Shown here piece by piece: positions 25,658 through 54,653 of a stretch of DNA of 57,639 nt. The DNA comes from an uncultured virus (IMG/VR IMGVR_UViG_3300024999_000051) (Duplodnaviria > Heunggongvirae > Uroviricota > Caudoviricetes), in IMG/VR virus record IMGVR_UViG_3300024999_000051. The stretch is one strand, 5' to 3'. A program made the translations under genes and the position numbers. The number at the start of each line of letters is the position of its first letter. Position 1 is the first letter of the stretch. The notes under the pieces are model-generated. The model saw nothing but the letters and a program-made list of their open reading frames with translations. It was not told the origin of the DNA and did not search any database.

Positions 25658-25808
25658 ATTAGGATTAGTAAATATAACTCTATAGGTTATATTGTTGGTT
25701 TATAACTCAGATAGTAGACATCAATAATTTGATGTCTATTTTTGTGCGTTAAAACACAAACAAAGATAGATTGGGATTAATTACCCCAATTGAAAGAGTG
25801 GGTTCCTT

Positions 25809-26921
25809 ATGCCCATTCTTCTTTGTTTTATAAAAATAAGGGGAAATACACTAATAAGGAGTGAAGAAATGAAAAAATTAATGTCTCATACATATGAATA
25901 TGTATATAATTATTTCAAAGAAAGAGGATGCAAACTTCTAAGTAAAGAATATATAAATAATAGAACACCACTAGATTATATTTGTTTGTGTGGAAATCCA
26001 AGTAAAGTTTCTTTTAAAAATTTTAAAGGTGGAAATAGATGTAAAAAATGTATAAAAAATAATCCCACAAGAAAGAATTGGAATGCTTTTATGAAAACAA
26101 TGGAATTTGTTGAAGGATTTTTTAATAAAATGCATTGTAAATTATTATCTACCACATTTAATAATGATAAAGATAAGTTAAAATTTATTTGTTCTTGTGG
26201 TAAAGAAGATACGATTACCTTTGGAGCGTTTAAAAGAGGTTTGAGGTGCAAAGTTTGTTCAAATAATAAAAGTAGTAAAAATTTATCATATACCATTGAA
26301 TTTATTGATTATTACTTTACATATTTAGATATGAAGCTTTTATCAAATATATATGATAATGCTCAAACTGAGTTAAAATATGTTTGCACTTGTGGAAACG
26401 TGGCGCATACTAATTTCGCAAGAATAACTATGGGTAGTAGATGTGAAAAGTGTGCTATCAGTAGAAGAAGCGGTGAAAATTGTCATATGTATGACGAAGG
26501 ACAAACTCCTCTTGTTATACATTTGCGAGATAGAATAGGACAATGGAAAAGGGAATCTATGAAATTATCAAATTACAAATGTATAATCACTGGGAAAAGT
26601 TTTGATGTAGTTCATCATTTATATGGATTTAATATAATATTAAAAGAGACAATGAATATATTAAATTTAAAATATTATGATGAAATAAATAAATACACAA
26701 AAGAAGAATTAATTAATATTGAAAATATATGTTTTGAATTACATTATAAGCATGGTTTAGGGGTTTGTCTAGTTTTGCCAATGCATAAATTATTTCATTC
26801 CAGAGATTTATATGGAATAGGAGATAATACGCCAGAAGAGTTTGAAGAATTTAAAGTAAGATTAAAATCAGGAGAATTTAATGATTATTTATTAGAAAAT
26901 AATTTAACTTTGATAATTTAA
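25809..26921 (+). CDS. Free-standing Zn-finger-repeat HNH-like endonuclease (likely start ATG 25869)
   Basis: Repeated CxCG..RCxxC; C-terminal HHLY..H..FH..YG.G.NT domain shared with 29357. Confidence 0.7.
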   Translation: MPILLCFIKIRGNTLIRSEEMKKLMSHTYEYVYNYFKERGCKLLSKEYINNRTPLDYICLCGNPSKVSFKNFKGGNRCKKCIKNNPTRKNWNAFMKTMEFVEGFFNKMHCKLLSTTFNNDKDKLKFICSCGKEDTITFGAFKRGLRCKVCSNNKSSKNLSYTIEFIDYYFTYLDMKLLSNIYDNAQTELKYVCTCGNVAHTNFARITMGSRCEKCAISRRSGENCHMYDEGQTPLVIHLRDRIGQWKRESMKLSNYKCIITGKSFDVVHHLYGFNIILKETMNILNLKYYDEINKYTKEELINIENICFELHYKHGLGVCLVLPMHKLFHSRDLYGIGDNTPEEFEEFKVRLKSGEFNDYLLENNLTLII

Positions 26922-27051
26922 TATTTTTACAGTAGATAGAGGGCATCAGTGAGTTGATGCTCTTACTTGTATTGTAAAGGTACAATACAAATAAAAATTA
27001 CTGACTTTAATATTTAGAGTTTAGTCAGTGCTCTAGAAAGGATGATAAAAA

Positions 27052-27909
27052 ATGTATCAAGAGAAAATGGTGGTCTGTCTCAAAAACAATGGTAAAATCC
27101 TTAGAGAAAAAGAGGGAATAATTCAAATTCCATTTGGTTCAGAGTATTCTATTTACATCAAGAATCTTGAATCAAGAAAAGCAAAAGTTAAGATATCTAT
27201 AGATGGAGTAGATGTACTTAATGGTCAGTCATTATTAATTAATCCAAATGAGACAACTGAATTAGAAGGATTTTTGAATGATTGTATCGCAAAGAATAAA
27301 TTTAAATTTATTCCTAAGACAAAAGAAATTTCTGAATATCGTGGAGATAAAATTGAAGATGGATTGATTAGAGTGGAATTTTGGTATGAAAAATTAAAAC
27401 CAATAACTCAACATATTAATCAAGTGTTTAATCCTAATCCTAATCCTTGGTGGGTTACATATAAGCAGCCAACTTATGATATTAGTCCTACTTGGACAAC
27501 TAATACAAATTTAAATTGCAGTAATAGCACTAATATAGTTAATAAATCAATGCAAATGGATTGTTTAAGATCATTTGATAATAATGTTTGTCAAACAAGT
27601 CTTACATCAAACTGTTCTACTTCAGATATTACTGCTCAAAATTGTTCTTCATTGAATAGTATTAAAAGTTTTGATGATGGAATTACTGTAAAAGGCGAAG
27701 AAATTTCACAACAATTTAAGTATGGTAATATTGGTGTATTGGAAGAAAACTCCCATGTGATTATTTTAAGATTAGTTGGATTCAATGATATTGGAGATAA
27801 AGTTGAGAAAGTTGTTACTGTAAGAGATAAGTTGCAATGTAGGATTTGTGGGAAAGTTAGTGGATCTAGTGGTAAATTTTGTGATAGATGTGGGAGTTAT
27901 TTGGAGTGA
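27052..27909 (+). CDS. Hypothetical protein with C-terminal zinc ribbon
   Basis: CRICG...FCDRCG; flanked by ~70-bp direct repeats. Confidence 0.75.
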   Translation: MYQEKMVVCLKNNGKILREKEGIIQIPFGSEYSIYIKNLESRKAKVKISIDGVDVLNGQSLLINPNETTELEGFLNDCIAKNKFKFIPKTKEISEYRGDKIEDGLIRVEFWYEKLKPITQHINQVFNPNPNPWWVTYKQPTYDISPTWTTNTNLNCSNSTNIVNKSMQMDCLRSFDNNVCQTSLTSNCSTSDITAQNCSSLNSIKSFDDGITVKGEEISQQFKYGNIGVLEENSHVIILRLVGFNDIGDKVEKVVTVRDKLQCRICGKVSGSSGKFCDRCGSYLE

Positions 27910-28029
27910 TATAATTTATATAATTAAATAATATTTTTACAGTAGATAAGGAGCATCATTTATTTGGTGCTTCTCTTTGTGTTGTAAAGATACAATGCAA
28001 ATTTATGATTGAAATGAGGTGAAGTAAAA

Positions 28030-28233
28030 ATGACAGAACAGAATAAAAAAGAAAATAAGGATGAAGAAAGATATGTATTTATATATAATCCAGAACAAGC
28101 TTCATTCTATATGGAAAATGGAGTTATGGCAAAATCAACAGGAATTCATCCTAAAACAAAAAGAGTTTGGTTTAAATTTGGGTTTGATGATAGTTCAGAT
28201 GTGTATGGGCAGTGGTGTGTTAGAAATAGATGA
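28030..28233 (+). CDS. Small protein, paralog of 50395-50583
   Basis: ERYVFIYNPEQASFYMENGVMAKSTGIHPKTKRVW. Confidence 0.8.
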   Translation: MTEQNKKENKDEERYVFIYNPEQASFYMENGVMAKSTGIHPKTKRVWFKFGFDDSSDVYGQWCVRNR

Positions 28234-28276
28234 TTATTTATGATTGACAAAATAAAAATGAAAGTGGGAATTTAGA

Positions 28277-29077
28277 GTGGAAAATAATAATCAATTAATA
28301 ACAATAAATTACAATGGAGAAAATCAAACAGTATTAGGAAGAGAATTACATGATTTTTTAGAGGTAAAAACTCAATATAAAGACTGGTTCCCAAGAATGT
28401 GTGAGTATGGATTTGTCGAAAATGAAGATTTCAACTTGCTCAAAAATGAGCAAGTTCAAATAGAAGGCAATAGAAGCGTTTCAAGGGTAATAACAGATCA
28501 TCAAATGACAGTTGAAATGGCAAAAGAAATTTCTATGATTCAAAGAAGTGATAAAGGCAAATTAGCTAGGCAATATTTCATAGAGTTAGAAAAGAAATGG
28601 AATTCTCCTGAAGCAATTATGGCTAGGGCTTTAACTATGGCAAATAAGACAATAGATAATTTGAAATTACATACTTCCTTATTGGAAGCAAAAATAGAAG
28701 AACAAGCTCCTAAAGTAGAATTAGCAGATAGATTATTTATTTGTGATGCTGAAGTTAATATTGGAGAAGTAGCAAAATTATTTAATGAAAAAATAAGAAA
28801 AGGTAAATCAATTGGGCGGGATAGATTATTTGAGATTCTTCGTGAGGAGCATGTTCTTATGACATATGGAGCAGAAAAGAATAATCCTCAACAAAAGTAT
28901 ATTGACAATGGATGTATGGTTTTAAAAACTAGCACATTTGATAATGGACATGGTAAAACAAAATTATCATCTACAACTAAAGTTACTCCAAAAGGGATAA
29001 ATTGGTTATGGAATTTTCTTATTAAAAAGGGATATATAATGATTGATGATGTTTTGGTTAATGGTGATGAGGATTAG
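28277..29077 (+). CDS. AntA/AntB plus KilA-C antirepressor
   Basis: GRELHDFLEVKTQYKDWF, MAKEISM, ARQYFI, TTKVTPKG. Confidence 0.85.
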   Translation: MENNNQLITINYNGENQTVLGRELHDFLEVKTQYKDWFPRMCEYGFVENEDFNLLKNEQVQIEGNRSVSRVITDHQMTVEMAKEISMIQRSDKGKLARQYFIELEKKWNSPEAIMARALTMANKTIDNLKLHTSLLEAKIEEQAPKVELADRLFICDAEVNIGEVAKLFNEKIRKGKSIGRDRLFEILREEHVLMTYGAEKNNPQQKYIDNGCMVLKTSTFDNGHGKTKLSSTTKVTPKGINWLWNFLIKKGYIMIDDVLVNGDED

Positions 29078-29356
29078 ATTAAAATAATAAATAAAGTTTC
29101 CTAAGTTATAAGACGCTTGAGCAATCAGGCGTTTTCTGTGTGGATGGAAATAATAATAATACAAATTATTATAATGTTTTGTGGGTAAGTCGATATCTCA
29201 AGCAGGAATGTTTGAGATATTTGTTATTCACTGAAACATGTGGATTGGGGTAGATAATAATTCAGAGTCATGACTGAGTTTCTGTGCGTCTACCCTTTTA
29301 TATCTTTTAGTAAATAAGCACAGAAATAATATTGCACAGAAAGAAGGAATTAGATT

Positions 29357-30907
29357 ATGTTGTTAACAAAAGAGGTAGAGGTAATCCTCCATGCAAGCAC
29401 CACTAAACATTATGAATTATCAGGCTATAAAATTCCAAGAGTAAAGGTTAAAAACAAATACGTTGTTAAAAAAGGTACTACAATAATAATTAAAGTTGAA
29501 GATCTATTGCCTTTATCTAATGTAATAGTGGAGTATGAATGCGATTATTGCGAAAGGCCAAAACAAATAGCGTATTGTGATTATACTAGAAAAAATACAA
29601 AAAATGATAAAGATTGCTGTATAGATTGTTTAGGGAAATATAAATCGGAGATTTCTAAAGAATTGTGGAAAGAAAAATTACAATTAGAAGTTAAAATATG
29701 TAGTAAGTGTAAAAGAGAGTTTCCTAAAACTACTGAATATTTTCGTCATGATTGCCATATTTGTGATAGGGAGTTACCTATTAATAGAGATTTTTATGAT
29801 ATAGATGATAGATGTTTAGATGGATATAGGGGAATTTGCCGTGAGTGCAATGGAGAAGATTTTTATCCAGAAATAAAAGCAGAACCTTGGAGTCAGCAAG
29901 ATATTGATATCATAATTGAATATTACGAAGAAAAATTTACTAAAGATATTCAATATATGTTAACTACTACTAGAACTGAAAAAGCAATACTACATATGGC
30001 ATCTAAGTTGGATTTGAGGAAAAATGATAACTATATAAGAGATTATAAAAAAATAAAATATAAAATAATAGATAATAAACTATATAAATTGTGTAAATGC
30101 TGTGAGGAATACTTACCAGTAGACAGAGTATATTTTCCTGACGACAAAACATGTACTGATAATTTAAGAAACGTATGTAGAATGTGTATAGGAAATAAAT
30201 ATTTATTTGATTCAAATGTCCATATATGGACTCAAGATGAGATAAATATAATACTTAATAATTATGCCAATATGACAAATACAGAAATAAAAGATATTCA
30301 TTTTCCAAGTTTGACAAATGGAAAGATAATGAGCAAAGGTAATAGTTTAAATCTTTATAAATCACAAGAAACATTAGATAGAATGTTTATAGAACTTGGT
30401 AAAATGACATCAAATAGATTATTATTACTTGAAAAATGGAAAGGTGAAGATAATCCTCAATACGATAGTCAAAGATTCGGCAATCTAAATCCTAATTACA
30501 AAGATGGAATTAGTGCTTTATCGCAAGAATTGAGAAGGAATATTAAACAGTGGAAGTTAGATAGTATGGAAAATGCTAATTATAAATGCTTTCTGTCAGG
30601 AGATAGATTTGATGATATTCATCACTTATATAGTTTTGGCAGTATAGTTCAGGATACCTTAAATGAAACTGGGATACAATTGTATGAGAATATTTCTTCT
30701 TATACACAAGAAGAATTGCAAAAATTAATTGATAAATGTTTGGAAATACATTATCGTTACCCTCTGGGGATATGTATGCAAAAGAAATACCACATACAAT
30801 TCCATGTCGAATTTGGATATGGAAACAATACACCTGAACAATTTTATCAATTCATTGAAAATTATTATGATGGAAAATATAAAGACTTAGAAGAAGTTAG
30901 TTATTAA
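29357..30907 (+). CDS. Free-standing Zn-finger-repeat HNH-like endonuclease
   Basis: Multiple CxxC; C-terminal domain homologous to that of 25809. Confidence 0.7.
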   Translation: MLLTKEVEVILHASTTKHYELSGYKIPRVKVKNKYVVKKGTTIIIKVEDLLPLSNVIVEYECDYCERPKQIAYCDYTRKNTKNDKDCCIDCLGKYKSEISKELWKEKLQLEVKICSKCKREFPKTTEYFRHDCHICDRELPINRDFYDIDDRCLDGYRGICRECNGEDFYPEIKAEPWSQQDIDIIIEYYEEKFTKDIQYMLTTTRTEKAILHMASKLDLRKNDNYIRDYKKIKYKIIDNKLYKLCKCCEEYLPVDRVYFPDDKTCTDNLRNVCRMCIGNKYLFDSNVHIWTQDEINIILNNYANMTNTEIKDIHFPSLTNGKIMSKGNSLNLYKSQETLDRMFIELGKMTSNRLLLLEKWKGEDNPQYDSQRFGNLNPNYKDGISALSQELRRNIKQWKLDSMENANYKCFLSGDRFDDIHHLYSFGSIVQDTLNETGIQLYENISSYTQEELQKLIDKCLEIHYRYPLGICMQKKYHIQFHVEFGYGNNTPEQFYQFIENYYDGKYKDLEEVSY

Positions 30908-30943
30908 CTAACTTCTTTCCCAATTAAGTTAGGAGATTAAATT

Positions 30944-31804: not shown

Positions 31805-31815
31805 GGAGAAATATT

Positions 31816-33549: not shown

Positions 33550-33587
33550 TATCAAACAAATCCCTAAAGAAAGGAGGTATCTCCAAT

Positions 33588-35228: not shown

Positions 35229-35254
35229 TTTAAATAATAAAAAGTTGAAAGGAG

Positions 35255-37684: not shown

Positions 37685-39056
37685 ATGAGTTTTGGAATAG
37701 ATTTTACAAATTTTCAAGCAAATGCAGAACAAGTGGAAATTAATAAAAACGTTAAGAATATGTTACCGAATATTGTTAAAAACGAGAATGTGGAGATTTT
37801 CACCAATATTTTATATGGTAAAGATGTATCTAAGTATGGTAAAAAAGTTGATACGGTAATGGATAAGATTAAGATGTTAGCAACTGCTGCTAATGATGGT
37901 AATTCTCAAGCTACAACAGAATTGAACGCAATTCGGACTATTACTATTCAACAACCTCTTGAAAAAAGACTGGCAATCAATAGTGCAATGGGGACAGTTA
38001 CAAAAGTTGGATTTAATGAAGAAATGCATTATGAAGTATATGAGATGCAAGGTCAAAAATCAAGAATCCAAGCATCTTCTGGTTCTTTTGTATTCCCAAC
38101 TGTTAAGAAAAGAACTGGTATTATGACCACTCAAACTTCTACTGGTGGAGTGCTAGTTGATTATAGAGAGTTACAATCTGGAGCTACAGATGGATTTGCA
38201 ATGGCAAATGAACAAGTCGTTACAGATTTAACAAATCAAATGGTTCTCTCTCACATCAATGCTCTGAGAGCAGGAATTACTGCTGCTACCACTTTAAAGA
38301 ACTACAGCGAGGGGATTACTAAGACTAATGTTGAAAATACAAGAAAATTAGCAAAACGTTTTGGTACTTCTGTAACAATTATGGGAGATTACAGTGCAGT
38401 AAATAAACTTGGGGATCTTGCTAATTTTAGTGTTGTGGCTGCTGGCACAGAATTTAGATTCCCTGAATCCGTAATGGAAGAAGTAATGAAAACTGGTCTT
38501 ATTAAAGTGTATAAAGGAAGTATAGTAGTTGAATTGCCAAATTCTTACAATATGATCGATCTTAATACTGCTGGAGATTTTTATGCTCCTCAATTACCTA
38601 CAACTGATTTATGGTTTTTGCCACAAGGTATTATGAGTCCTTTACAAATAGGTCTTAAAGGTAATTTAACTTCCATGGAAGGCACAGACCTAAATTCTAG
38701 GAGTCGTGCCATTCGTTATGATTGGGAATTCGGTGAATAATTGCCGACTTAGACAGAAATGTTTAATGTAAAAATCGCGGTATTAAGCTGGAACCCTGAA
38801 ATGGGAATCAGAACCGAAGGCTAATCTAAGATTAGTCAGGGGCAACGCATAGGAAGTGAATAAATATAATCTTCCCACGAGTCCGCGACACCTTATCAAG
38901 TTTTTCTTGAAGGTGAAAAGATATGCTGAACTTATACGAAGAAAAAGTATAAGAACTACAGGATAAAAAGCTTGTAGGGTAACAAAATTGAATTATTTGG
39001 TTCCTGAATATATTCCAATGGTTGGATATATTTATGACTCTGCTTTAGCTGAGTAA
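37685..39056 (+). CDS. Major capsid protein, spliced: exon 1 37685-38734, exon 2 38991-39056 (371 aa)
   Basis: Position and size; splicing gives ...RYDWEFG|NYLVPEYIPMVGYIYDSALAE*. Confidence 0.8.
38735..38990 (+). ncRNA. Group I intron, 256 nt, no internal ORF
   Basis: Exon ends in U, intron ends in G; P1 TCGGT/GCCGA with U-G; P10 AATAATT/AATTATT; core AAGCTGGAAC, AATCAG, GCAACGCATAG, AAGATATGCTGAAC; P3 TCGCGG/CCGCGA. Confidence 0.9.
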
Positions 39057-39193
39057 TATTAAACAAATTTTATAAAAGGTAGGTATTAATTAAGATTGCA
39101 AGCCTAATTAATTACTGATAAGAGTGGTTTTCCTAGACCACTCTTCTTTTATTTTATAAAAAATTAGGGAGTGATTCTAAGGAGGAATTAAAA

Positions 39194-40825
39194 TTGGCAA
39201 CAAAACTTACATATCAAATCATTAAAAACTATATAAATAGCGAAGAAACAGGAAATGGTTGTAGTCTAAAAACTACAGAAGAAGAATTTAATCAAGCGAA
39301 GATAGATCAAAACAAAAATAGTTCACATGTAGTAATATTTATGAAATGTAAATGTGGAAATAATATTGAGAAATCTTATGATAATTTTAAATACTCTAAG
39401 AAGCAATGTAATAAATGCTCTGGATTAGAAAGAAGGACTAATGAAGAAGTTAAATATTTCATAGAAATAGAATCTCAATCAAATTGCAAGTTATTATCAG
39501 AATATACTATTGCAACTGATTTATTAGATTTAGAATGTGGTTGTGGAAGGCCATTTAAGAAAAGTTGGAATAAGTTTTATAGTTGTAATCAAAGAACATG
39601 TAATGAGTGTAGCAATAAATTATCAGGAGAAAAACATAAAATACCTTATAAAGATATAAAGCATTATATAGAGATTGAAAGTAATAGTGGTTGTGAGTTA
39701 ATAACAACTGAAGATGAATATGTAAACACACATCTAGATATTGATATTAAATGCAAATGTGAAAACCCTTTTACTACATCTTTTAAGCAATTTAAAGGAG
39801 AACAATCTAAAAAGCAACATTGTGATGATTGTGGCAATAAAGCAAGAGGAGAAAAACTGAGTAAACCATATATAGAAGTTAAAAATACTATAGCAATCAA
39901 TGGTTGCGAATTATTAACTACTATTGAAAATTATGAAAATTCTAATTCTCTTTTGGAAATCAAATGTAATTGTGGTAAACCATTTGAAACAACATACAAG
40001 ATGTTTTCAAGGAAAATTGGTGCAAAAGACAAATGTGATGATTGTGCATTAATTAATTTTAAAAAATTAAATAAAATACCTTATAACGAAGTATATGATT
40101 TATTTAAAATTGAGAATTGTATATTATTAACTTCCGAGCAAGAATATTATACTACTCCAGATGATGACAATAAATTAAGTTATAAATGTTCTTGCGGAAA
40201 TAATAAACCATCTTTTATTTCTTTAGCTCACTTTAAAGGTGGTGAGAGGTGTAGAAGTTGCTTAAGACAGAGAGTTAAAGATACCAATCTCAAAAATAAT
40301 GGAGTAGAGTATCCTATGCAAAATCCAGAAATAAAAGAAAGAAATAGGCAATCTTTATATAAAAATGGAACTGCAAGATGTAGTAGGCAACAAAAATACA
40401 TACACAATCTTATAGGAGGAAAACTCAATTACCCATTTAAAGGATCTTCTCTTGATGTAGCATTTCCAGATGAAATGATTTATCTAGAATATGATGGTTC
40501 TGGGCATAGAATGAGTGTAACACTTGGAACATTTACAGAAAAAGAATTCATAAAAAGAGAAAGAAATAGAACCTATGGGTTACTACGTTCTGGTTGGAAA
40601 GAAATTAGAATCATTAGTGAAAAAGATGACCTAATCCCATCAGACCAAAAACTTCTAGAAATTCTATTATACGCACGTACATACCTCAATCAAAATCATC
40701 ATTATATTAAATTCGACATTGACAATTCAAAAATAATTAATTCTCAAGGTGAATTTGATTATGATTTTGGCGAACTAAGAAGAATCAAATCAACTGATAT
40801 TATAGAAATTCAAGTAGCAATATAA
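39194..40825 (+). CDS. Free-standing endonuclease: Zn-finger repeats plus Vsr/PD-(D/E)XK-like C-terminus
   Basis: Five CxCG..CxxC repeats; LDVAF..YLEYDGSGH..GWKEIRI. Confidence 0.75.
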   Translation: MATKLTYQIIKNYINSEETGNGCSLKTTEEEFNQAKIDQNKNSSHVVIFMKCKCGNNIEKSYDNFKYSKKQCNKCSGLERRTNEEVKYFIEIESQSNCKLLSEYTIATDLLDLECGCGRPFKKSWNKFYSCNQRTCNECSNKLSGEKHKIPYKDIKHYIEIESNSGCELITTEDEYVNTHLDIDIKCKCENPFTTSFKQFKGEQSKKQHCDDCGNKARGEKLSKPYIEVKNTIAINGCELLTTIENYENSNSLLEIKCNCGKPFETTYKMFSRKIGAKDKCDDCALINFKKLNKIPYNEVYDLFKIENCILLTSEQEYYTTPDDDNKLSYKCSCGNNKPSFISLAHFKGGERCRSCLRQRVKDTNLKNNGVEYPMQNPEIKERNRQSLYKNGTARCSRQQKYIHNLIGGKLNYPFKGSSLDVAFPDEMIYLEYDGSGHRMSVTLGTFTEKEFIKRERNRTYGLLRSGWKEIRIISEKDDLIPSDQKLLEILLYARTYLNQNHHYIKFDIDNSKIINSQGEFDYDFGELRRIKSTDIIEIQVAI

Positions 40826-44755: not shown

Positions 44756-46150
44756 TTGGAGGATATGTCATGTCGTGAGACACACCGCTATCCTTCTTTT
44801 TCTATGTTTAAAAGTAGAAATAAGGAGGATCAAATGGGATTAATTAGTAAAACAGCAATGACAAAATGGATGCACAATAATAAAATAAGGTATGAAGAAA
44901 GAGGATATGTTTTTACAAAATATAAAGATGAACTTGAAGTTAATATTAAAGATTTAAGTAATAGTAGTCATGTTTTAGTAAATGTTAAATGTGATTGTGG
45001 TAATTGTAAGAATCCATATTTAAAACCTATGACATGGGTGAATTATTTAACTAATGTTCATAAAGATAATAAATATTATTGTAATGAATGTGCTAAAAAA
45101 TTATATGGTGGAGTAAATATACAAAAATCAAAATTGAAAAATAGTATATCTTTTAAACAATGGTGTATCGAAAATAATCGTCAGGATATATTAGATCGGT
45201 GGGATTATGAATTAAACAATTGCAAACCTAGTGAAATAAGTTTTGGAACTCAAAAAAGATATTATTTTAAATGTCTAAGAAACTTACACAATAGCGAATT
45301 AAAAAATATAAAAAGTTTTACTAGTGGTCAAAATGGATCAATGGATTGTAATGCTTGTAATTCTATTGCACAATGGGGTATAGATAATTTAGGTGAAGAT
45401 TTTCTTGATAAATATTGGGATTATGAAAAGAATATAGTTTCCCCTTGGGATATCGATAAATGTTCTAATAAACATAAAATATTTATAAAATGTCAAGAAA
45501 AATATTATCATGAAAGTTATGAAGTATCACCAGATAATTTTACTAATAGTAGCAGATGTCCTTATTGTAATAATCGTAATGGTAAAATTCATAAATTAGA
45601 TTCTCTTGGAACAATATACCCAGATGTATTTAAATTTTGGTCAGATAAAAATGAAAACTCTCCATATGAATATGCTCCTATGAGTCATCAATATGTTTGG
45701 TGGAAATGTCCAGATGAAAAACATGAAGATTATTATAGACTAATATCTTCTTCATCAATTCGTGATTTTAGATGTCCAGAATGCCAATGTTCAACAGGTG
45801 AGATTGAAGTTGGTAAGAAATTATTGAATAAAGAAATTTACTATATCCCACAAAAAACATTTGATGGTCTGATTGGTCTAGGTGGAGGTTTATTATCTTA
45901 TGACTTTTATATTCCTAAAATAAATCTTTTAATTGAGTATCAAGGTGAAATGCACGAAAGATTTGTCAGAGGAATACATAAATCAATTAAAGACTTTGAA
46001 AAACAAGTAGAACATGATAGACGAAAAAAAGAATACGCAGAACAAAACAAATATAATTTTCTCGAAATATGGTATCAGGATTTTGATAATATAGAAGAGA
46101 TTCTTACAAAAGAATTAAATCTATTAGAGGAAGTGATGCTTATGATCTAG
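44756..46150 (+). CDS. Free-standing Zn-ribbon plus PD-(D/E)XK endonuclease (likely start ATG 44834)
   Basis: WDYE/WWKC repeats; SYDFY..LIEYQGEMH..DRRKK..LEIWY. Confidence 0.75.
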   Translation: MEDMSCRETHRYPSFSMFKSRNKEDQMGLISKTAMTKWMHNNKIRYEERGYVFTKYKDELEVNIKDLSNSSHVLVNVKCDCGNCKNPYLKPMTWVNYLTNVHKDNKYYCNECAKKLYGGVNIQKSKLKNSISFKQWCIENNRQDILDRWDYELNNCKPSEISFGTQKRYYFKCLRNLHNSELKNIKSFTSGQNGSMDCNACNSIAQWGIDNLGEDFLDKYWDYEKNIVSPWDIDKCSNKHKIFIKCQEKYYHESYEVSPDNFTNSSRCPYCNNRNGKIHKLDSLGTIYPDVFKFWSDKNENSPYEYAPMSHQYVWWKCPDEKHEDYYRLISSSSIRDFRCPECQCSTGEIEVGKKLLNKEIYYIPQKTFDGLIGLGGGLLSYDFYIPKINLLIEYQGEMHERFVRGIHKSIKDFEKQVEHDRRKKEYAEQNKYNFLEIWYQDFDNIEEILTKELNLLEEVMLMI

Positions 46151-46221
46151 TGTTTGTTAAGAATGTTGGAGAAACAGTAGTTAGTAGTGGATTTAGGATT
46201 CAGGTAAAGAGTTTGTTTTAG
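46150..46221 (+). pseudogene. Orphan duplicate of the 3' end of the 43569 gene
   Basis: Reads VFVKNVGETVVSSGFRIQVKSLF* versus ..LQIKSLF* at 44741. Confidence 0.65.
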
Positions 46222-46336
46222 GGTGGTGATTGGGTAATTAATATAAATATTTTCAGTCTAGAGGTGGTGTATTGAAATAGAAAAATCTTTCAAATTTAAA
46301 CATATAGAAAATAATCTTGTAAAGTTATTATCTCTA

Positions 46337-47512: not shown

Positions 47513-47529
47513 AAAGGGGGAATTATACA

Positions 47530-48303: not shown

Positions 48304-48430
48304 TTGAGCAATAAATAATTACATATGGTTTCTTATAGGTTTGCGCGAGTTTATGAGAGTAATTAAAAGAGACTACGATTCTGATAAGTAGTCTCTTTTC
48401 CCATTTATTCCTTTAAATCAGAAAGAGGAG

Positions 48431-50113
48431 ATGTTGAAAATGTTAATGACAAAAGAAATTGAAATAACAATCGTAGCTTTCACAGTAAAATATTATAAGA
48501 ATTTAGGATATAAAATACCAACAACTATTAATGATAAAGGCAAAGAGAAATTCATATTAAATAGTAAAATAATAGTAAAGATAGAAGATTTACCACTTGG
48601 AAGTCATGAAAAAGTTCATGTAAAATGTGACTTATGCGGAAAAGATATATATCCTCATTATGATATGTATAACCGTTCGGTAAAAAAATATAAAGAAAAC
48701 AATATTGATTCATGCGACGAGTGCAAAAGCGAAAAAACAAAACTTATGCAAATTGTTAGAAATAAAACCATGTTAAATGAAAATGGACATGGATATTGGT
48801 GTGATAAAGATAATTTAATTAAAGAGTTTAATAAATACTATAAACAATATGGTACATTCTCTGAAATGAATAAAAACAGTTACGGGACTTCTATAATAAA
48901 TGGATTACAAAAACATGATGAAAATATTACATCAATGGCATTGCAATTGGGTTATTCAATTCAAGATTTTGGTAGAATCCCGTATGGATGGTATGATGAT
49001 TTTGATATTTTTAAAGAGGATATGATTGATCTTATTAATAAATATGGTAGGTTTCCAACTTCATTAGAAATTCAAAAATGTTTAAGAATTGGTTCATTAG
49101 TAATTAAAAAACATGGTGGCATGCAAGAAATAAAAAATAAATTAAATTACGATAGAGACAATAATCTTTTAGATGATAATAATTATCACAACGCATCATC
49201 CTATGAATATATAATTGCACAATTTTTAATACATAATACCAATATAAAATATGATAGAAATGTAATTATTTCATTAGAAGATGGTAAATTTAACTGTGAT
49301 TTTAGAACTATTATTGATGATAATATTGAAAATAATTATCTTTGGATAGAAGCATGGGGAGGTTATGGAGAAAGTAAATTTAAAGGAGAATATGATAAGA
49401 CTCACAATATAAAAATGAACATTTATAACAAATATAGTTACAAACTCATTAGTCTATATCCAAAAGATTTTGCCAACAAATCATATGAAGAAATACAAAA
49501 TATGCTCCGTGAAAAATTCAAACCTTATATGGATTTAAAATTCAAATATATAGACAATAAATTATTAAATACTAGTACATATAAAAATAGAACAGATAAT
49601 GAGATTCTAGAAGAATTTATGAGTTATTCTAGTGATGGATTTTACTTCCCATCTGATAAAAATGTGCAAAAATTAAATAGTAAATTGTATACAGAAGTTT
49701 ACAAAAGATTTGGAAATTTTAGCAAAATGGCAGAAAAATTTAATATGAGAGACAGGTTAAACTTCAAACCCAATGGATATTGGTCAGAAGAACGGTTGTT
49801 GGATTATTTAATTAAAATTCATAATAAATATGGTAAATTTTTATCAATGGCAAAAGTTAAAGAAAATAAAGAAGTATGTGATATTTGTAAAGAATTATAC
49901 AGTGGGTTTGATAAAGTGTCAAAATATGGTGGTAAGATCCTTATGGAATTAAAATTTTTACATATTTATTTAAATAAAATTAATGATTATGATTTATTAT
50001 ATTTAAATAAAATAATTAAAGGGACAATTAGTATCAAGCCACAACACCAACTCCTAGCAAAACAAATCCTAGAAAAATACAATAACCAACAATTAATTAT
50101 AAGTAATAGCTAA
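48431..50113 (+). CDS. Free-standing endonuclease-like protein (GYW repeats, PD-(D/E)XK-like core)
   Basis: N-terminus shared with 29357 and 44834; CDFR..WIEAWG. Confidence 0.6.
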   Translation: MLKMLMTKEIEITIVAFTVKYYKNLGYKIPTTINDKGKEKFILNSKIIVKIEDLPLGSHEKVHVKCDLCGKDIYPHYDMYNRSVKKYKENNIDSCDECKSEKTKLMQIVRNKTMLNENGHGYWCDKDNLIKEFNKYYKQYGTFSEMNKNSYGTSIINGLQKHDENITSMALQLGYSIQDFGRIPYGWYDDFDIFKEDMIDLINKYGRFPTSLEIQKCLRIGSLVIKKHGGMQEIKNKLNYDRDNNLLDDNNYHNASSYEYIIAQFLIHNTNIKYDRNVIISLEDGKFNCDFRTIIDDNIENNYLWIEAWGGYGESKFKGEYDKTHNIKMNIYNKYSYKLISLYPKDFANKSYEEIQNMLREKFKPYMDLKFKYIDNKLLNTSTYKNRTDNEILEEFMSYSSDGFYFPSDKNVQKLNSKLYTEVYKRFGNFSKMAEKFNMRDRLNFKPNGYWSEERLLDYLIKIHNKYGKFLSMAKVKENKEVCDICKELYSGFDKVSKYGGKILMELKFLHIYLNKINDYDLLYLNKIIKGTISIKPQHQLLAKQILEKYNNQQLIISNS

Positions 50114-50144
50114 ACTTATAATTACCCATCACAACATCAAAATA

Positions 50145-50192
50145 AGAGGAAAGACAGACAAAACCAAATTGTCTTTCTTTCCTCATTTTTTT
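50145..50192 (+). terminator. Intrinsic terminator
   Basis: GAGGAAAGA..GACAA/TTGTC..TCTTTCCTC followed by a T-tract. Confidence 0.6.
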
Positions 50193-50394
50193 TACTATTT
50201 CCATCCAAACCATCCAAATCCAAATAAATCACTGATTTTATACTAAATATCAACTTTTATCGGATATTTTGGCTTACGAAAGTCGCTTGTAGCAATGGAT
50301 ATTTTGCAAAAGATTGAATCTCATTCTTTAATTAGAATGAGATTTTATGTGTTGCAAAGTTGTGATGCAAATATATAAGTGAAAGGAGGAAATT

Positions 50395-50583
50395 ATGTTG
50401 ACGGAAAAAGAACAAGAAAGATTTGTTTATATTTACAATCCTACCCAAGCATCGTTCTATATGGAAAATGGAATTATGGCAAAATCAACAGGAGTGCATC
50501 CAGAAACAAAAAGAGTTTGGTACAAGTTTAGTTTTTCTGAGAGCACAAATGTCTATGACGCATGGTGTAGTAGAAAGAAATAA
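50395..50583 (+). CDS. Small protein, paralog of 28030-28233
   Basis: ERFVYIYNPTQASFYMENGIMAKSTGVHPETKRVW. Confidence 0.8.
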   Translation: MLTEKEQERFVYIYNPTQASFYMENGIMAKSTGVHPETKRVWYKFSFSESTNVYDAWCSRKK

Positions 50584-50640
50584 TTATGAGTGAACTAATA
50601 ATAAACGTAATAAAATTAAATGTGAAAGAAGGAATTTTTA

Positions 50641-51519
50641 ATGAAAAAGAATAATAATAGCAAAAACAATGAGTTGATGATTAAAGGCAAAACTAAAGTA
50701 TGTGGTATTGAGGTTCATAATATTTATGGTGGGTTTAGTGGTAATCAAAAAGTTATGTTAGCAAAAACAGTTGCAATTATTCATGATAGGGAATTAAAGC
50801 ATGTAAATGAATTAATAAATAAGAATCTAAAAAACGAATATTTTAAAGTTGGAATTGATTATATTGATTTGAAAAAGTCGGTCGGTTCAAACGACTCACT
50901 TTTAGAGTTAGGATTTAATAGACAATCTATAGCTAACGCAAAAAATATATACCTTTTATCTCAACAAGGATACACGACTTTATTAAAATTACTTGATTCG
51001 GAATTAGCAATGGAACAATATAAAATAGTTGTTAGAGATTATTTTAAGTTGAGAGAGTATAAAGAATCTATACTATATCTTACTCAAGCAGAATTAGATC
51101 AATTAGTTGTTAGAAAAGATGGGATCATTAGGCGTAATAGAGAAACAAAGTCTATATCAACATTTATCCAAAATGGTGAATTACCAAATAATCGAAAATC
51201 ATATTCTTCTGTTACGAATACTACATATGATATTTTATTTGGCATGTACGCAAAAGAAATAAAGGAATATTTAAATTTAAAACAACAAGATAATCTCAGA
51301 GATTTCCTTTCAACTCCAGACTTATCAGTAATTAGAGAGATTGAAGATGAAATACATTGGATGTGTAAGAAAGGTTATACTTGGAGAGAAATTTATAGGG
51401 ATTTAGTAAAAGAATATCCTGATCAAATTGAACCAGTTAAAGCAGAGAAGTCTATTAAAGAGTTAAAGAAAGCAAAGAAATTTGCTATAGATAGTAATGA
51501 GTTTAAGAAGTTGACTTAG
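50641..51519 (+). CDS. ORF6N-domain antirepressor-like protein
   Basis: VMLAKTVAIIHDRELKHVNELIN..IYLLSQQGY. Confidence 0.7.
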   Translation: MKKNNNSKNNELMIKGKTKVCGIEVHNIYGGFSGNQKVMLAKTVAIIHDRELKHVNELINKNLKNEYFKVGIDYIDLKKSVGSNDSLLELGFNRQSIANAKNIYLLSQQGYTTLLKLLDSELAMEQYKIVVRDYFKLREYKESILYLTQAELDQLVVRKDGIIRRNRETKSISTFIQNGELPNNRKSYSSVTNTTYDILFGMYAKEIKEYLNLKQQDNLRDFLSTPDLSVIREIEDEIHWMCKKGYTWREIYRDLVKEYPDQIEPVKAEKSIKELKKAKKFAIDSNEFKKLT

Positions 51520-51654
51520 GTTTGAATTAATAGGGTTAATTAATAAAATATAATATAACAAAGGCATGACTGAATTATCGGTTGTGTCTTTGTTTGTATT
51601 TGTGATGATTTGAGTAATTGGAATTAATATAAAATTGAATTAAGGAAATTAGGA

Positions 51655-52104
51655 GTGAGAGATATAGGAAATCAAGTTTTAATAACTTTAGATAAAAACA
51701 CATTAGATGAATATAACAAATATTACTTTGCTAAATATCCAAGAAGAAAAGTTGCACCAATCAAGAAACCTATTCCTCCTTCATTAAATGAATATATTTC
51801 TATGATTAGAATGGCTCAGAATACACTTAAAGGTAAATATAAGGAATTTTCTATTTGGTTGGCAGAACATTATAAAATAAATAATCTCAATTTAGATAAT
51901 GCAATTATTACATATACATTTTACTTCAAAACTCATATAAGACACGATTTTGATAACCTTATGTTAACTCCTAAATTCTTGAACGATGGATTAGTTGAAG
52001 CAGGAGTTTTTAAGGATGACTGTGGAGAGTTTTTGAAGTTAGAATTTGATCCATTTCAATATGATAAGTTAAATCCTCGCGTGGAAATGATTTTAGAATG
52101 GTAA
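51655..52104 (+). CDS. rusA: RusA-family Holliday junction resolvase
   Basis: PPSLN, DFDN..K..DGL..GVFKDD, PRVE. Confidence 0.8.
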   Translation: MRDIGNQVLITLDKNTLDEYNKYYFAKYPRRKVAPIKKPIPPSLNEYISMIRMAQNTLKGKYKEFSIWLAEHYKINNLNLDNAIITYTFYFKTHIRHDFDNLMLTPKFLNDGLVEAGVFKDDCGEFLKLEFDPFQYDKLNPRVEMILEW

Positions 52105-52322
52105 TAAAATAAATTTAATCAATTATAGAACTCAGGCACTTCATTTATATGAGAATGAGGTGCTTTTTGTTGTGTGATTGATTATTTTGATTGATTTGCA
52201 CAGATAAGTGGGATAGAATCTGCAGTTCGATAAGGGATAATTTGCCTTAATTTATCCTTTCCTCTTAATTCTCTTTTTTGGATTAAGGCAGTAATTAAAG
52301 AAACGAAAGGCGGTAATAAAAG

Positions 52323-53210
52323 ATGTTAGAGAATATTGAATTAAAAAAGACTAATAAAATGTTTGAGGAATTGTTCAGGTATAATAAGAAATCAGGAATA
52401 TACATGATAACAAATATAATTAATGATAAAAAATATATTGGACAGTCTAGAAATCTATGGAAACGTATTAGAGAGGGACACGTTGGTAAATTGAGAACAA
52501 ATTTACATTATAATATTCAGAACGCTTGGAATAAATATGGGGAAGATAATTTCAAATTTGAGATTATAGAAGAATGTGTGAACAACAGTGAGTTAAAAAC
52601 AAGAGAACAATATTGGATGGATTATTATAAAAGTTATAATAAGGATGTTGGTTACAATATTAGAGGAAAAGCAGACAATAATCATGGTTATTTAGAATCA
52701 GAAGAATTAAAGAAAATAAAAAGTGAGCGAATGAAAGGTGAAAACAATTATATGTATGGGAAAACTCATACTGATGAAGTAAAAAGAATTATAGCTTTAA
52801 ACACAATGAAAAAAGTATACCAATTAGATTTAAGTGGAAATCTTTTAAATACATTTGAAAGTTCAACTGAAGCAAGTAATGTTTTAGGTTTATGCGCTGA
52901 AAATATAAGAGCATCTCGTCAAGAAGTAAATGCAACTTATTCTGGATACATATGGTTAGGAGAAGAACAATATAACTCACCAAATAGGGACGATATTATT
53001 CAGAGGAGAATAATAAAAAATAACGGAAGACGTAAAGCAGTATATCAGATAGATTTAAATAATAATATTATTAATGAATATAAAGGTGTACGAGAAGCAC
53101 AAAGAATGACAAATATTTTTAATATTGGAAGTGTTGTCATTGGGAGGTTAAAAACAGCAGGTGGGTTTAAGTGGATTTATAAAGAAGATTATAAAAATGT
53201 AAGTGCTTAA
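52323..53210 (+). CDS. GIY-YIG homing endonuclease with NUMOD3/NUMOD1 modules
   Basis: SGIYMITN..KYIGQS, GYNI, MYGKTHT, TAGGFKW. Confidence 0.9.
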   Translation: MLENIELKKTNKMFEELFRYNKKSGIYMITNIINDKKYIGQSRNLWKRIREGHVGKLRTNLHYNIQNAWNKYGEDNFKFEIIEECVNNSELKTREQYWMDYYKSYNKDVGYNIRGKADNNHGYLESEELKKIKSERMKGENNYMYGKTHTDEVKRIIALNTMKKVYQLDLSGNLLNTFESSTEASNVLGLCAENIRASRQEVNATYSGYIWLGEEQYNSPNRDDIIQRRIIKNNGRRKAVYQIDLNNNIINEYKGVREAQRMTNIFNIGSVVIGRLKTAGGFKWIYKEDYKNVSA

Positions 53211-53230
53211 TAGACAATAAAATAAAAAGG

Positions 53231-54298
53231 ATGGTGATAATTATTCCTAGAGAAACATTTAAAAAACAAATAACTTCTCCAGAACTAACAGCACAATTTA
53301 ATCCTGAAAATGTAAAATTGGTTAATAGATTTCTAAAATACAAAAACACCTCAAAGAGCGATGGTACTGTAACTGGCTATACATCGGACTTGAATATCTT
53401 TTTCACTTGGAATTTATTGGAAAATGATAACAAGTTATTTACGGATATGAAGAAAATTGAGTTTGCAGATTTCTTTAGTTATGGAGTAGAAGAATTACAT
53501 TGGAGTGCTAATAGATTTAGTAGAATTAGGTCTGCTTTGAGTTCATTGTCAGAGTTCATTGAAAGATTTTATGATGAAACATATGTTAATTATCGTAATA
53601 TTGTGCTAAAAGCAGTAGATTTAATGCCAAAGTCTCCTGTTAGAGAAAAGACAATCCTATCCGAAGAACAGATTGATTATTTATTGGATCATTTGAAAAA
53701 CACATTAAAAAGACCACAAGAGGCATGTCTTTTGGCATTAGCTATTAGTTCAGGAGCAAGAGTTAGCGAATTACTTAGGTTTAAAACATCTATTATTGAT
53801 GAAAATAATATTGCATGGGACTTATTTTTAGAAACCTTAAAGCCAATAAAAACGAAAGGTTTTACAAAACAAGGCAAACCACTAATAAAATACATAGTGA
53901 AAGATATATTTCTACCATATTACAATGATTGGTTAATTGAAAGAGAAAAAGTTATGAAGAAATATAATATGGATCATGACTCTATTTTTATAACAAGAGA
54001 TGGCAAACCTGCAACAATACATACTATTAGGGGTTGGATTGAAAAGTGGGATGATTTTATGGAAGATTCGATATATTTCCACAATTTTCGACATTATACA
54101 GTCACATATTTAACAAAAATAGGTTTAGAATCCGATTTTATTATTGAAATTATGGGATGGTCGTCAAGTGAAATGTATCGAATTTACAATGATTTAACAG
54201 CAAAAGATAGACAATGGAAAGGTTTAGATAAACTTAAAGCTCATTTAGATAATAAAGAAGTTATTGAAGAAGAGGATAAAGTTGAAGAAGATAAATAA
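53231..54298 (+). CDS. Tyrosine recombinase (yomM-like position)
   Basis: SGARVSEL, KTKG, HNFRH, MGW..RIY catalytic set. Confidence 0.9.
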   Translation: MVIIIPRETFKKQITSPELTAQFNPENVKLVNRFLKYKNTSKSDGTVTGYTSDLNIFFTWNLLENDNKLFTDMKKIEFADFFSYGVEELHWSANRFSRIRSALSSLSEFIERFYDETYVNYRNIVLKAVDLMPKSPVREKTILSEEQIDYLLDHLKNTLKRPQEACLLALAISSGARVSELLRFKTSIIDENNIAWDLFLETLKPIKTKGFTKQGKPLIKYIVKDIFLPYYNDWLIEREKVMKKYNMDHDSIFITRDGKPATIHTIRGWIEKWDDFMEDSIYFHNFRHYTVTYLTKIGLESDFIIEIMGWSSSEMYRIYNDLTAKDRQWKGLDKLKAHLDNKEVIEEEDKVEEDK

Positions 54299-54653
54299 AT
54301 TATAAAAATAATAGGGATTAAAATTACAAATTAATCCCTCCTCCTTCCACCCAACCCATCATCCCCAACAAAATAAAAGGACATTTTCATAGGATATTTA
54401 ACATCATGAAAGTGGCCTGTAGCAAGGGTTTTAGGATTTATAAGATTCCATAAATATAATAATTTAAAAATAATTTAAGATAGATTAAAACACCTTGAGA
54501 TAATTAAGGTGTTTTTTGATGTGTCTTAAATATGACACAAAATTAGCAGGATAGACTGATCATCGAAAAACACAAGCCTTAGTGTTTCCTGCTTTTCTTT
54601 ATTAAATTAAGGCAAAATAAAATATACACAATATTGAAAGGCGGTATTAAACA

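What the first reader, a model, noticed from the sequence alone, without database searches (positions are those of the whole stretch)
25758..54653. Family of three-way-junction leaders with palindromic loops and RBS-directed pseudoknots before inserted genes
Seen: at 25758-25860, 39072-39185, 52205-52312 and 54545-54645 the layout is P1-UAG-P2-YGAW-AA-P3-P1' with different stem sequences. P2 loops are self-complementary (TAATTA, TTGCAA, CTGCAG, TGATCA). P3 loops (TTCCTTAT, TTTCCTAG, TGCCTTAAT, GCCTTA) complement a downstream word that recurs at the RBS (ATAAGG, TAGGGAG/TAAGGAG, TAAGGC/AAGGCGG). Variants at 29248-29342 (GTCATGAC; TTTCTGTGC vs GCACAGAAA twice), 44758-44796 and 48329-48423 (TTCTGAT vs ATCAGAA). 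They precede six endonuclease genes and the primase. Inference: an undescribed cis-regulatory RNA restraining toxic gene translation, perhaps switched by kissing-loop dimerisation.
Basis: partly seen in the sequence, partly recalled or inferred. Interest (0 to 1): 0.75.

Follow-up and report, generated by a model that had tools for sequence, protein, structure and literature searches.

The report
Folded leader RNA before phage endonuclease genes
Four genes of this uncultured phage, three of them selfish DNA-cutting enzymes, are each preceded by a three-armed folded RNA, common in uncultured phages, with one loop that matches the gene's ribosome landing site and a decoy copy just before it, so it most likely tunes how much protein is made.

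Summary
At 25758, 39072, 52209 and 54545 the sense strand folds as P1-UA-P2-GAHA(A)-P3-P1'. A covariance model built only from 57 metagenomic relatives plus copies A and B picks up all four and nothing else in the window at E below 0.4.

Covariation is strong:
- A-type, 59 distinct sequences: 92% of cells paired against 63% when shuffled.
- D-type, 9 sequences: 96% against 80%, including the pseudoknot.

The P3 loop is an anti-Shine-Dalgarno sequence. It matches, gene by gene, both an upstream decoy word and the real SD. The SD usually sits in the loop of a further hairpin, P4.

The sites at 29248, 44758 and 48329 use similar logic but the model does not recognise them.

Downstream genes were nucleases in 31 of 50 cases, and also integrases, a primase-like gene and unknowns.

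Nothing matched in Rfam 15 and my paper searches found no description. A 2023 catalogue lists unnamed candidate RNAs before HNH genes that I could not compare. Earlier reports of this scan describe, on other DNA, what reads as the same kind of leader.

Most likely role: cis translational control. The direction of the effect and the trigger are unknown.

The parts
25758..25828 (+). Leader A three-way junction (P1 25758-66/25820-28; UAG; P2 25770-90 with loop AUUAAUUAC; P3 25795-25819 with anti-SD loop UCCUUAU)
   Evidence: The minimum-free-energy fold gives this junction. R2 scores it 84.1 bits. A 96%-identical variant, L038, keeps pairing in P3 through G-U to A-U and G-C to G-U changes, one side each.
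25836..25863 (+). Leader A decoy word AUAAGG (25836-41), then hairpin P4 (CACU/AGUG, 25849-63) showing the SD word AUAAGGA (25854-60); start codon at 25869
25869..26921 (+). HNH-type homing endonuclease gene behind leader A
   Evidence: phrog_559, E 9e-23
39072..39152 (+). Leader B three-way junction (P1 39072-78/39146-52; UAG 39080-82; long P2 with UUGCAA apex; P3 39120-45). It starts 16 nt after the stop codon of the capsid-like gene.
   Evidence: Descriptor hit. R2 scores it 43.5 bits, with P1 and P2 misaligned because P2 is long. P3 plus the U-run also scores as terminator-like.
39164..39190 (+). Leader B word 1 UUAGGGAG (39164-71) and hairpin P4 (39172-90) with the SD AAGGA in its loop; start codon UUG at 39194
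39194..40825 (+). HNH homing endonuclease gene behind leader B
   Evidence: phrog_559, E 5e-33
52209..52267 (+). Leader C junction (UAG 52214-16; P2 GAAU/GUUC around CUGCA; P3 52232-60 with loop UUUGCCUUAAU; weak P1)
   Evidence: R2 scores it 22.4 bits, E 0.004. Descriptor hit.
52282..52313 (+). Leader C decoy word AUUAAGGCA (52282-90) and SD word AAAGGCGG (52306-13); ATG at 52323
52323..53210 (+). GIY-YIG homing endonuclease gene behind leader C
   Evidence: Pfam GIY-YIG, NUMOD1 and NUMOD3
54545..54593 (+). Leader D junction (P1 AGCAGGA/UCCUGCU; invariant core UAGACUGAUCAUCGAA 54552-67; P3 54568-87 with loop AAGCCUUA)
   Evidence: R2 scores it 21.6 bits, E 0.006. Nine distinct relatives give 96% paired cells, with 12 of 17 pairs changed on both sides.
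54608..54648 (+). Leader D decoy word UAAGGC (54608-13) and hairpin P4 (AAUAUUG/CGGUAUU, 54630-48) with the SD AAAGG in its loop; ATG at 54654
54654..56780 (+). 708-aa gene behind leader D; primase-like only as a lead
   Evidence: No named family in Pfam, NCBIfam or PDB sequences; only phrog_25531 of unknown function. Nearest protein-atlas clusters carry the DnaG zinc ribbon, RepB primase or Prim-Pol.
29248..29342 (+). Analogue E: P1 GGGGUAGA/UCUACCC, P2 with UCAUGA apex, single-stranded UUUCUGUGC (29279-87) complementary to GCACAGAAA at 29318-26 and 29334-42
   Evidence: R2 gives only 8.7 bits, E 9.9.
44758..44833 (+). Analogue F: a 16-bp hairpin pairs the SD AAGGAGGAU with AUCCUUCUU; the upstream GGAGGAUA could compete for that strand
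   Evidence: R2 does not find it.
48329..48423 (+). Analogue G: three-way fold whose P3 loop UUCUGAU is complementary to AUCAGAA next to the SD
   Evidence: R2 does not find it.

Best explanation
These are copies of a widespread, uncatalogued cis-acting mRNA leader that controls translation initiation of the gene behind it.

A three-way junction (P1, P2, P3) holds a conserved core (GA-UAG, P2, YGAHA) and presents the P3 loop as an anti-Shine-Dalgarno sequence. That loop has two mutually exclusive partners downstream:
- an SD-like decoy word 5-20 nt after P1';
- the true SD, which usually sits in the loop of a small hairpin (P4) just before the start codon.

Loop with SD (a loop-loop kiss) would block the 30S subunit. 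Loop with decoy (a pseudoknot) would leave the SD free. The two pairings are nearly equal in predicted energy, so the leader would set a low or switchable level of initiation. That suits enzymes needed in small amounts: homing endonucleases, integrases, a primase-like protein.

Shown: the fold, its covariation, the gene-specific match of the loop to both words, and the enrichment of P4.

Inferred: the effect on translation, its direction, and any trigger. The conserved junction and the palindromic P2 loop are the likely input site.
For: **Family membership.** Model R2 was built from 57 metagenomic relatives plus three window rows: A, a misaligned B and a reverse-strand row of A. It finds A, B, C and D as the only convincing hits in 57.6 kb on both strands: 84, 43.5, 22.4 and 21.6 bits, with the next real hit at 14.

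**Covariation, A-type.** 59 distinct sequences and 24 pairs. 92.4% of cells are paired against 62.7% when shuffled (0 of 500 shuffles reach it). Slid controls give 42-56%. 22 of 24 pairs change on both sides.

**Covariation, D-type.** 9 sequences and 17 pairs including the pseudoknot. 96% of cells are paired against 79.6% shuffled, with slid controls at 35-48%. P1 and P3 are 100% paired; loop with word 1 is 88.9%.

**Three-way co-variation of loop, decoy and SD.** GCCUUA goes with UAAGGC and AAGGCGG. UCCUUA goes with UAAGGA and AAGGAGA. UUCCCG goes with CGGGAA and GGGAGG.

**Cognate against non-cognate duplex energy.**
- Loop with the upstream word: -7.68 against -3.84 kcal/mol, Mann-Whitney p 5e-26.
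- Loop with the SD region: -7.06 against -4.81 kcal/mol, p 1e-14.
- n = 67 cognate and 784 non-cognate pairs. The sequences are related, so these p values are not exact.

**Words.** Of 68 members, 52 have an upstream word of 5 nt or more, 60 have an SD word of 4 nt or more, and 45 have both.

**P4.** A stem of at least 5 bp encloses the SD in 38 of 63 members. The figure is 5 of 32 for other genes of the window and 29% for flank shuffles.

**RNA level, sense strand.** 117 G-U cells against 33 A-C cells.

**Interchangeable subtypes.** The orthologous primase-like gene carries a D-type leader in close relatives and an A-type leader in a more distant one. There, 10 nt of the loop pair with the SD and another 6 with the decoy (L398).
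Against: - No expression or probing data exist. No RNA run is listed for this DNA.
- The decoy is as good a partner as the SD or better: stronger in 39 of 67, equal in 6, weaker in 22. It is also transcribed first, so the leader could be constitutively open. In that case it would act as a stabiliser, insulator or enhancer rather than a brake.
- P4 is only about twofold enriched and is absent in about 40% of members at the 5-bp level.
- The word counts rest on a crude start-codon guess.
- Some members show little loop-to-word match: L117, L123, and window B only with a bulge.
- The A-type set was collected with a pattern that fixes the P2 loop and junction, so conservation of those parts is partly built in.
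- Alignment A7 was fitted to the model's structure, which favours pairing.
Confidence: 0.62

Rival explanations
1. Transcription punctuation. P3 plus the U-rich P1' is an intrinsic terminator or insulator that shields the inserted gene from upstream transcription. The rest is incidental.
For: P3 of A (25794-25820) and of B (39120-39145) pass the terminator-like scan. B and L042 start right after the stop codon of the upstream gene.
Against: Only 17 of 60 A-type members have at least 5 T in the 8 nt after P3, and 28 of 60 after P1'. L075 and GC-rich members have no U-run. A, C and D already follow a separate terminator hairpin. Termination explains neither P1 and P2 covariation nor the loop-to-word match.
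Confidence: 0.1
2. Sensor RNA. The conserved junction and P2 loop bind a small molecule, ion or protein, possibly the encoded nuclease or a phage regulator. That binding decides whether the loop takes the decoy or the SD.
For: The junction is conserved amid freely varying helices. UAGACUGAUCAUCGAA is invariant in 9 of 9 D-type members, but it was the search pattern, so this is built in; independently, 6 of 6 distinct leaders before orthologues of the 708-aa gene carry it. UAG is present in 56 of 60 rows and UGAA/UGAC in 58 of 60. There are two near-isoenergetic states.
Against: The downstream genes share no metabolic theme. Junction strands are short. A- and D-type P2 differ entirely. No Rfam riboswitch matches. 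Nothing was tested.
Confidence: 0.15
3. Processing element. The junction is a self-cleaving ribozyme or an RNase site that frees the mRNA from upstream context and leaves a structured, stable 5' end. This would resemble the lariat-capping ribozyme before endonuclease genes in eukaryotic twin-ribozyme introns, or engineered ribozyme insulators (the latter comparison is recalled).
For: Its position is immediately upstream of nuclease genes, after stop codons or terminators. It has a compact junction with a pseudoknot and a small conserved core. The GIR1 precedent appears in the abstract of PMC2219692 (listing).
Against: No hammerhead, twister, pistol, hatchet or GIR1 match even at E 10. Very few nucleotides are conserved across A- and D-types. 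The anti-SD logic needs no cleavage.
Confidence: 0.06
4. DNA-level element. On this view the hairpins and repeated words are protein-binding sites, recombination sites or promoter parts of a mobile cassette, and not an RNA.
For: The P2 apexes are DNA palindromes. The words are short direct repeats, with one inverted copy in the P3 loop. Window intergenic regions carry other repeated cassettes. I-TevI is cited as an autorepressor in the reference list of PMC3014915.
Against: G-U pairs outnumber A-C by 117 to 33. The helices co-vary while their sequences differ completely between copies, so no single protein could read them. The element always lies on the sense strand 20-75 nt before a start codon. 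The words overlap the SD.
Confidence: 0.05

Closest known systems
RBS-sequestering RNA structures of T-even phage homing endonuclease genes (I-TevI, I-TevII, I-TevIII, Aeh1 mobE, T4 segB)
   Same: These are cis RNA structures at the translation start of intron-encoded or free-standing endonuclease genes that lower initiation from read-through transcripts (passages of PMC3014915). Window site F (44758-44833) is of exactly this simple kind.
   Different: Those are single local hairpins that pair the SD or AUG within a stem, some with a late promoter inside. Here a covarying three-way junction presents an anti-SD loop. The SD sits in a hairpin loop, a decoy SD competes for the anti-SD, and P2 has a palindromic loop. 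The family spans many unrelated phages and nuclease families.
Pseudoknot or kissing-loop SD control in riboswitch expression platforms (e.g. cobalamin, preQ1, SAM-II; recalled)
   Same: A loop or tail pairs with the SD region to gate 30S access.
   Different: No Rfam riboswitch matches. No ligand is implied by the gene context. The decoy-word arrangement is not part of those classes, as far as I recall.
HIV-1 dimerisation initiation site and other palindromic kissing loops (recalled)
   Same: The A-type P2 loop is 9 nt: two bases, a 6-nt palindrome (UAAUUA), then one base. 58 of 60 aligned rows have this form, but the search pattern fixed it. B, C and D have UUGCAA, CUGCAG and UGAUCA.
   Different: Dimerisation is untested. 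One member has the non-palindromic CUGAUCC (L401). An all-A-U palindrome would kiss weakly.
Candidate structured RNAs of Fremin, Bhatt and Kyrpides 2023 (PMC10690425)
   Same: This is a catalogue from the same kind of viral contigs. Its supplementary table mmc8 lists unnamed candidates within 25 bp upstream of HNH, NUMOD4 or GIY-YIG genes, for example DNAVirus_1007 with 350 HNHc genes, which is also on its 'Palindromic' sheet.
   Different: No structure, name or mechanism is given in the abstract or section 2.4, which I read. The alignment files could not be read, so identity with this family is open.

Membership tests
T-even type RBS-sequestering hairpin (I-TevI, mobE) | SD and/or start codon base-paired within a local stem | tested here: not met
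   In A, B and D the SD lies in the loop of P4, not in a stem. Site F alone meets this feature.
T-even type RBS-sequestering hairpin (I-TevI, mobE) | Late promoter inside the structure, so that late transcripts escape it | tested here: inconclusive
   A, B and L042 share TATAAAAA after P1'. Other members have nothing comparable, and the promoter scan is at chance level.
Intrinsic terminator | G+C-rich hairpin directly followed by a U-run | tested here: not met
   Met by A and B, but by only 17 of 60 family members after P3.
Any Rfam 15 family (riboswitches, ribozymes, HEARO, GIR1, leaders) | Covariance-model match | tested here: not met
   The only match at gathering score is a tRNA. At E up to 10 across 25000-57639 there are four chance-level hits, the best being the L20 leader at 20.6 bits against a gathering score of 58.7.
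Palindromic kissing-loop dimer (DIS-like) | 6-nt self-complementary sequence in an apical loop | tested here: met
   A UAAUUA, B UUGCAA, C CUGCAG, D UGAUCA. The exception is L401, with CUGAUCC.
Palindromic kissing-loop dimer (DIS-like) | RNA forms dimers through that loop | not testable with these tools
   This needs native gels or scattering measurements.
This leader family (model R2) | P1-UA-P2-GAHA-P3-P1' scored by the family model | tested here: met
   A 84.1, B 43.5, C 22.4 and D 21.6 bits. E scores 8.7 bits; F and G are not found.
This leader family (model R2) | P3 loop complementary to an upstream word and to the SD | tested here: met
   A, C and D have both. B has an exact match only to AGGAA at the SD. 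Across the family, 45 of 68 members have both.

The most novel reading that the evidence does not exclude
The leader is a two-state RNA switch. Its anti-SD loop toggles between a decoy SD (on) and the real SD shown on a hairpin loop (off). The palindromic P2 loop makes the choice depend on the RNA's own concentration through kissing-loop dimerisation. That would be copy-number feedback, letting selfish nuclease genes cap their own dose in any genome they invade.
Probability: 0.15. Interest if true: 0.85.

Novelty: new variant of a known kind. Interest (0 to 1): 0.68.

Why it matters
Homing endonucleases must be made, but only sparingly, in whatever gene neighbourhood they land. A portable, self-contained leader that travels with nuclease genes of unrelated families would explain how their dose is set.

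I found the leader in 57 of 59 metagenome loci searched with the model and in several viral contigs. That would add a common structured RNA class to phage biology.

The anti-SD, decoy SD and displayed SD form a compact design that can be tested directly with compensatory mutations. It could also serve as an expression-tuning part.

The leader also marks cassette boundaries, which helps in annotating mobile genes in uncultured phages.

Tried and rejected
- **Single-copy model.** Model R1, built from copy A alone, found B (E 1e-4) but not C or D. This was superseded by R2.
- **MAFFT alignments.** Alignments of the four copies, of A with B and of 45 members misplace the 3' half, so I did not use them for pair counts.
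- **BLAST of the leaders.** Searching the seven leader regions against 35 related loci found only identical copies.
- **Loose descriptor.** It is not above shuffles.
- **Genome-contig scan.** Of 120 loci, none was a convincing member. Host range in cultured genomes is therefore unknown.
- **Cultured phages.** blastn of a member gave only weak partial hits. R2 on the Staphylococcus, Streptococcus and Lactococcus phage stretches gave at most 23 bits, on terminator-like or RBS-like sequence. R2 on the whole records of phages c-st, 949 and phiL47 gave nothing; SAP23 gave only those weak hits.
- **Sequencing runs.** No RNA holder is listed.
- **Intervening sequence 38735-38990.** Rfam's group I intron model does not match it.
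- **The 17 unannotated downstream proteins and the 708-aa protein.** Pfam, NCBIfam and PDB sequence scans gave nothing above cut-offs.
- **16S pairing idea.** I considered that the D-type P2 loop UGAUC pairs with the 16S 3' tail (recalled sequence). I dropped it because the A-, B- and C-type loops do not fit.
- **Promoter idea.** I considered GAUAG as a -10 promoter element and dropped it. No -35 element lies at a constant distance, and P1 co-varies across it.

Full report
**What the window is**

The genes run on the + strand. They include a terminase 63% identical to that of Clostridium phage c-st (SPbeta YonF-like), a portal, structural genes, a tyrosine integrase and one tRNA. No whole genome is held for the window. 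The nearest record, G001, shares 72% of the sampled words.

Six genes behind the listed sites match endonuclease PHROGs: 25869, 29357, 39194, 44834, 48431 and 52323. The seventh is the 708-aa protein at 54654. It has no named family in Pfam, PHROGs, NCBIfam or PDB sequences. Its nearest protein-atlas clusters carry the DnaG zinc ribbon, RepB primase or Prim-Pol, so 'primase' is a lead only.

**Checking the observation**

It is better written as P1, UA, P2 (closed by a G-Y pair), GAHA(A), P3, P1'.

- P2 apexes are UAAUUA, UUGCAA, CUGCAG and UGAUCA.
- P3 loops are complementary to a word shortly after P1' and again to the SD.
- D's P2 is only 2 bp. C's P1 is weak.

A loose descriptor of my own is not above chance on the window: 7 hits against a mean of 4.1 in 30 shuffles. 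The window alone therefore could not settle the matter.

**Relatives**

- *Before a homologous endonuclease.* A homing endonuclease 42% identical to that behind A, on an unrelated viral contig (L042), has the same junction with different helices. Its loop GCCUCACA matches UGUGAG and the SD GUGAGG.
- *Before orthologues of the 708-aa gene.* Of nine distinct upstream regions, six carry a D-type leader.
- *D-type scan.* A scan for the invariant D core found 27 loci. Fourteen of them (9 distinct) are leaders. The other 13 look like chance matches in coding or GC-rich DNA.
- *D-type pair counts.* On the MAFFT alignment of the nine, 96% of 151 cells pair against 79.6% shuffled, with 0 of 500 shuffles as high and slid controls at 35-48%. 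Twelve of 17 pairs change on both sides. P1 and P3 are 100% paired. The loop-to-word-1 pseudoknot is 88.9% paired, with one row misregistered by MAFFT.
- *Triple co-variation.* The variable loop base changes together with both the decoy and the SD: GCCUUA with UAAGGC and AAGGCGG; UCCUUA with UAAGGA and AAGGAGA; UUCCCG with CGGGAA and GGGAGG.
- *A-type scans.* A pattern fixing only the A-type junction and P2 loop found 110 viral loci. Seventy-one were distinct, and 17 had a 6-bp P2; one or two of those are doubtful. A tighter pattern found 76 metagenome loci: 66 distinct, 60 parsed as full junctions, 3 plainly chance.
- *A-type pair counts.* The matches were aligned to a single-sequence model. 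The 59 distinct rows give 92.4% paired cells against 62.7% shuffled, slid controls of 42-56%, and 22 of 24 pairs changed on both sides. That alignment is fitted to the structure, so the controls matter more than the raw percentage.

**One family**

Model R2, built from that alignment, was run over the whole window with filters off. The alignment holds three window rows (A, a misaligned B and a reverse-strand row of A) but neither C nor D. The scores were:

| Site | Bits | E-value |
|---|---|---|
| A | 84.1 | 1.2e-18 |
| B | 43.5 | 1.8e-08 |
| C | 22.4 | 0.004 |
| D | 21.6 | 0.006 |

There was also a reverse-strand echo of A. Everything else scored 14 bits or less, at E 0.4 or more.

- E scores 8.7 bits. 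F and G are not found. They share the logic: E has a 9-nt anti-word with two exact copies of its complement, G has a loop against the SD flank, and F is a plain SD hairpin. They are analogues, not demonstrable members.
- In a relative with 70% terminase identity (G005), the orthologue of the 708-aa gene carries an A-type leader. Its long loop pairs 10 nt with the SD and another 6 nt with the decoy (L398). The subtypes are therefore interchangeable.
- A fifth copy lies just beyond the window's end in G001.

**Downstream half**

- Of 68 distinct members, 52 have an upstream word of 5 nt or more, 60 have an SD word of 4 nt or more, and 45 have both. Start codons were guessed crudely, which lowers these counts.
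- Predicted duplex energies are gene-specific:

| Pairing | Cognate (kcal/mol) | Non-cognate (kcal/mol) | Mann-Whitney p |
|---|---|---|---|
| Loop with upstream word | -7.68 | -3.84 | 5e-26 |
| Loop with SD region | -7.06 | -4.81 | 1e-14 |

- Relatedness inflates these p values. The decoy is the stronger partner in 39 of 67, equal in 6 and weaker in 22.
The SD usually sits in the loop of a small hairpin whose arms differ freely between members. A stem of at least 5 bp occurs in 38 of 63 members, against 5 of 32 other window genes and 29% of flank shuffles.
- G-U cells outnumber A-C cells 117 to 33, so the pairing is read on the sense-strand RNA.

**What follows the leader**

Of 50 distinct downstream proteins of at least 60 aa:
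- 31 match nuclease PHROGs (HNH of several families, GIY-YIG, endonuclease VII-like);
- 2 are integrases;
- 17 match nothing, and also nothing in Pfam above cut-offs.

**How it most likely works**

The loop, decoy and SD co-vary as a triple, so both pairings are under selection, and they exclude each other. I read this as translational control.
- A kiss between the P3 loop and the SD in P4 would block the 30S subunit.
- The decoy competes for the loop and frees the SD.

Whether the leader is mainly a brake, a set-point or a switch is not shown, nor is what flips it. The junction core and the palindromic P2 loop are the obvious input site.

A terminator role fits A and B but not the family: only 17 of 60 have the U-run. 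Ribozyme, sensor and DNA-level readings are kept as rivals.

**Compared with what is known**

- Rfam 15 has no match.
- The closest documented systems are the RBS-sequestering hairpins of I-TevI, I-TevII, I-TevIII, mobE and segB (passages of PMC3014915). The purpose is the same but the architecture is different.
- Five paper searches found no description.
- Fremin et al. 2023 list unnamed candidate RNAs just upstream of HNH genes. I read the abstract, section 2.4 and rows of one supplementary table. Their alignments were not readable, so overlap is possible.
- Five earlier reports of this scan describe, on other DNA, what reads as the same kind of leader, with the same reading. I tested that reading independently here; no stored stretch resembles copy A.

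**Verdict**

This is a real, widespread, structurally new leader. Its purpose is probably familiar, and the mechanism needs bench work.

Noticed in passing
window 38735-38990: A 256-nt intervening sequence splits the capsid-like gene. Exon 1 ends at U38734. Exon 2 (38991-39056) encodes the last 21 residues, colinear with an uninterrupted homologue in L033. The ends (U before the intron, G as its last base) follow group I intron habit (recalled), but Rfam's intron models do not match. The free-standing endonuclease with leader B lies right behind it.
   Followed up: partly
window 26922-27000, 27930-28005, 50300-50365, 54470-54540, 25700-25757: A repeated intergenic cassette. It has a box TTTACAnnAGAT(A/T), a terminator hairpin with a T-run, and then a covarying hairpin (UGUG...CACA, many G-U pairs) directly before the next gene or before the leader. 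It may be a 5' stabiliser or part of a promoter.
   Followed up: no
window about 1640, 8930, 50285, 54415: The motif CGCTTGTAGCAAGGGTTT, or a close variant, recurs in four intergenic regions.
   Followed up: no
window 25190-25246: The start region of gene 25247 resembles the 3' half of leader D (UUAAGGA ... AAAGGCAGG ... ACAAUG), but no junction lies upstream. It is either a remnant or a stand-alone pair of SD-like words.
   Followed up: partly
window 19532-19602: Another leader-like fold (R2 14 bits). The 3' strand of its long hairpin, ACUCACCUU, could pair either with its own 5' strand or with the SD GAGGUGAG of a small ORF.
   Followed up: no
L415 (record G001, just beyond the window's 3' end): A fifth family copy (R2 30.7 bits). 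Its loop CAAACUCCA matches UGGAGU and the SD UGGAGG, and it lies before another endonuclease-like gene.
   Followed up: partly
L014, L015, L033, L034, L022, L023: The terminase matches of several relatives stop at residue 413 or start at residue 85. This suggests that introns or inserted genes split the terminase gene in those phages.
   Followed up: no
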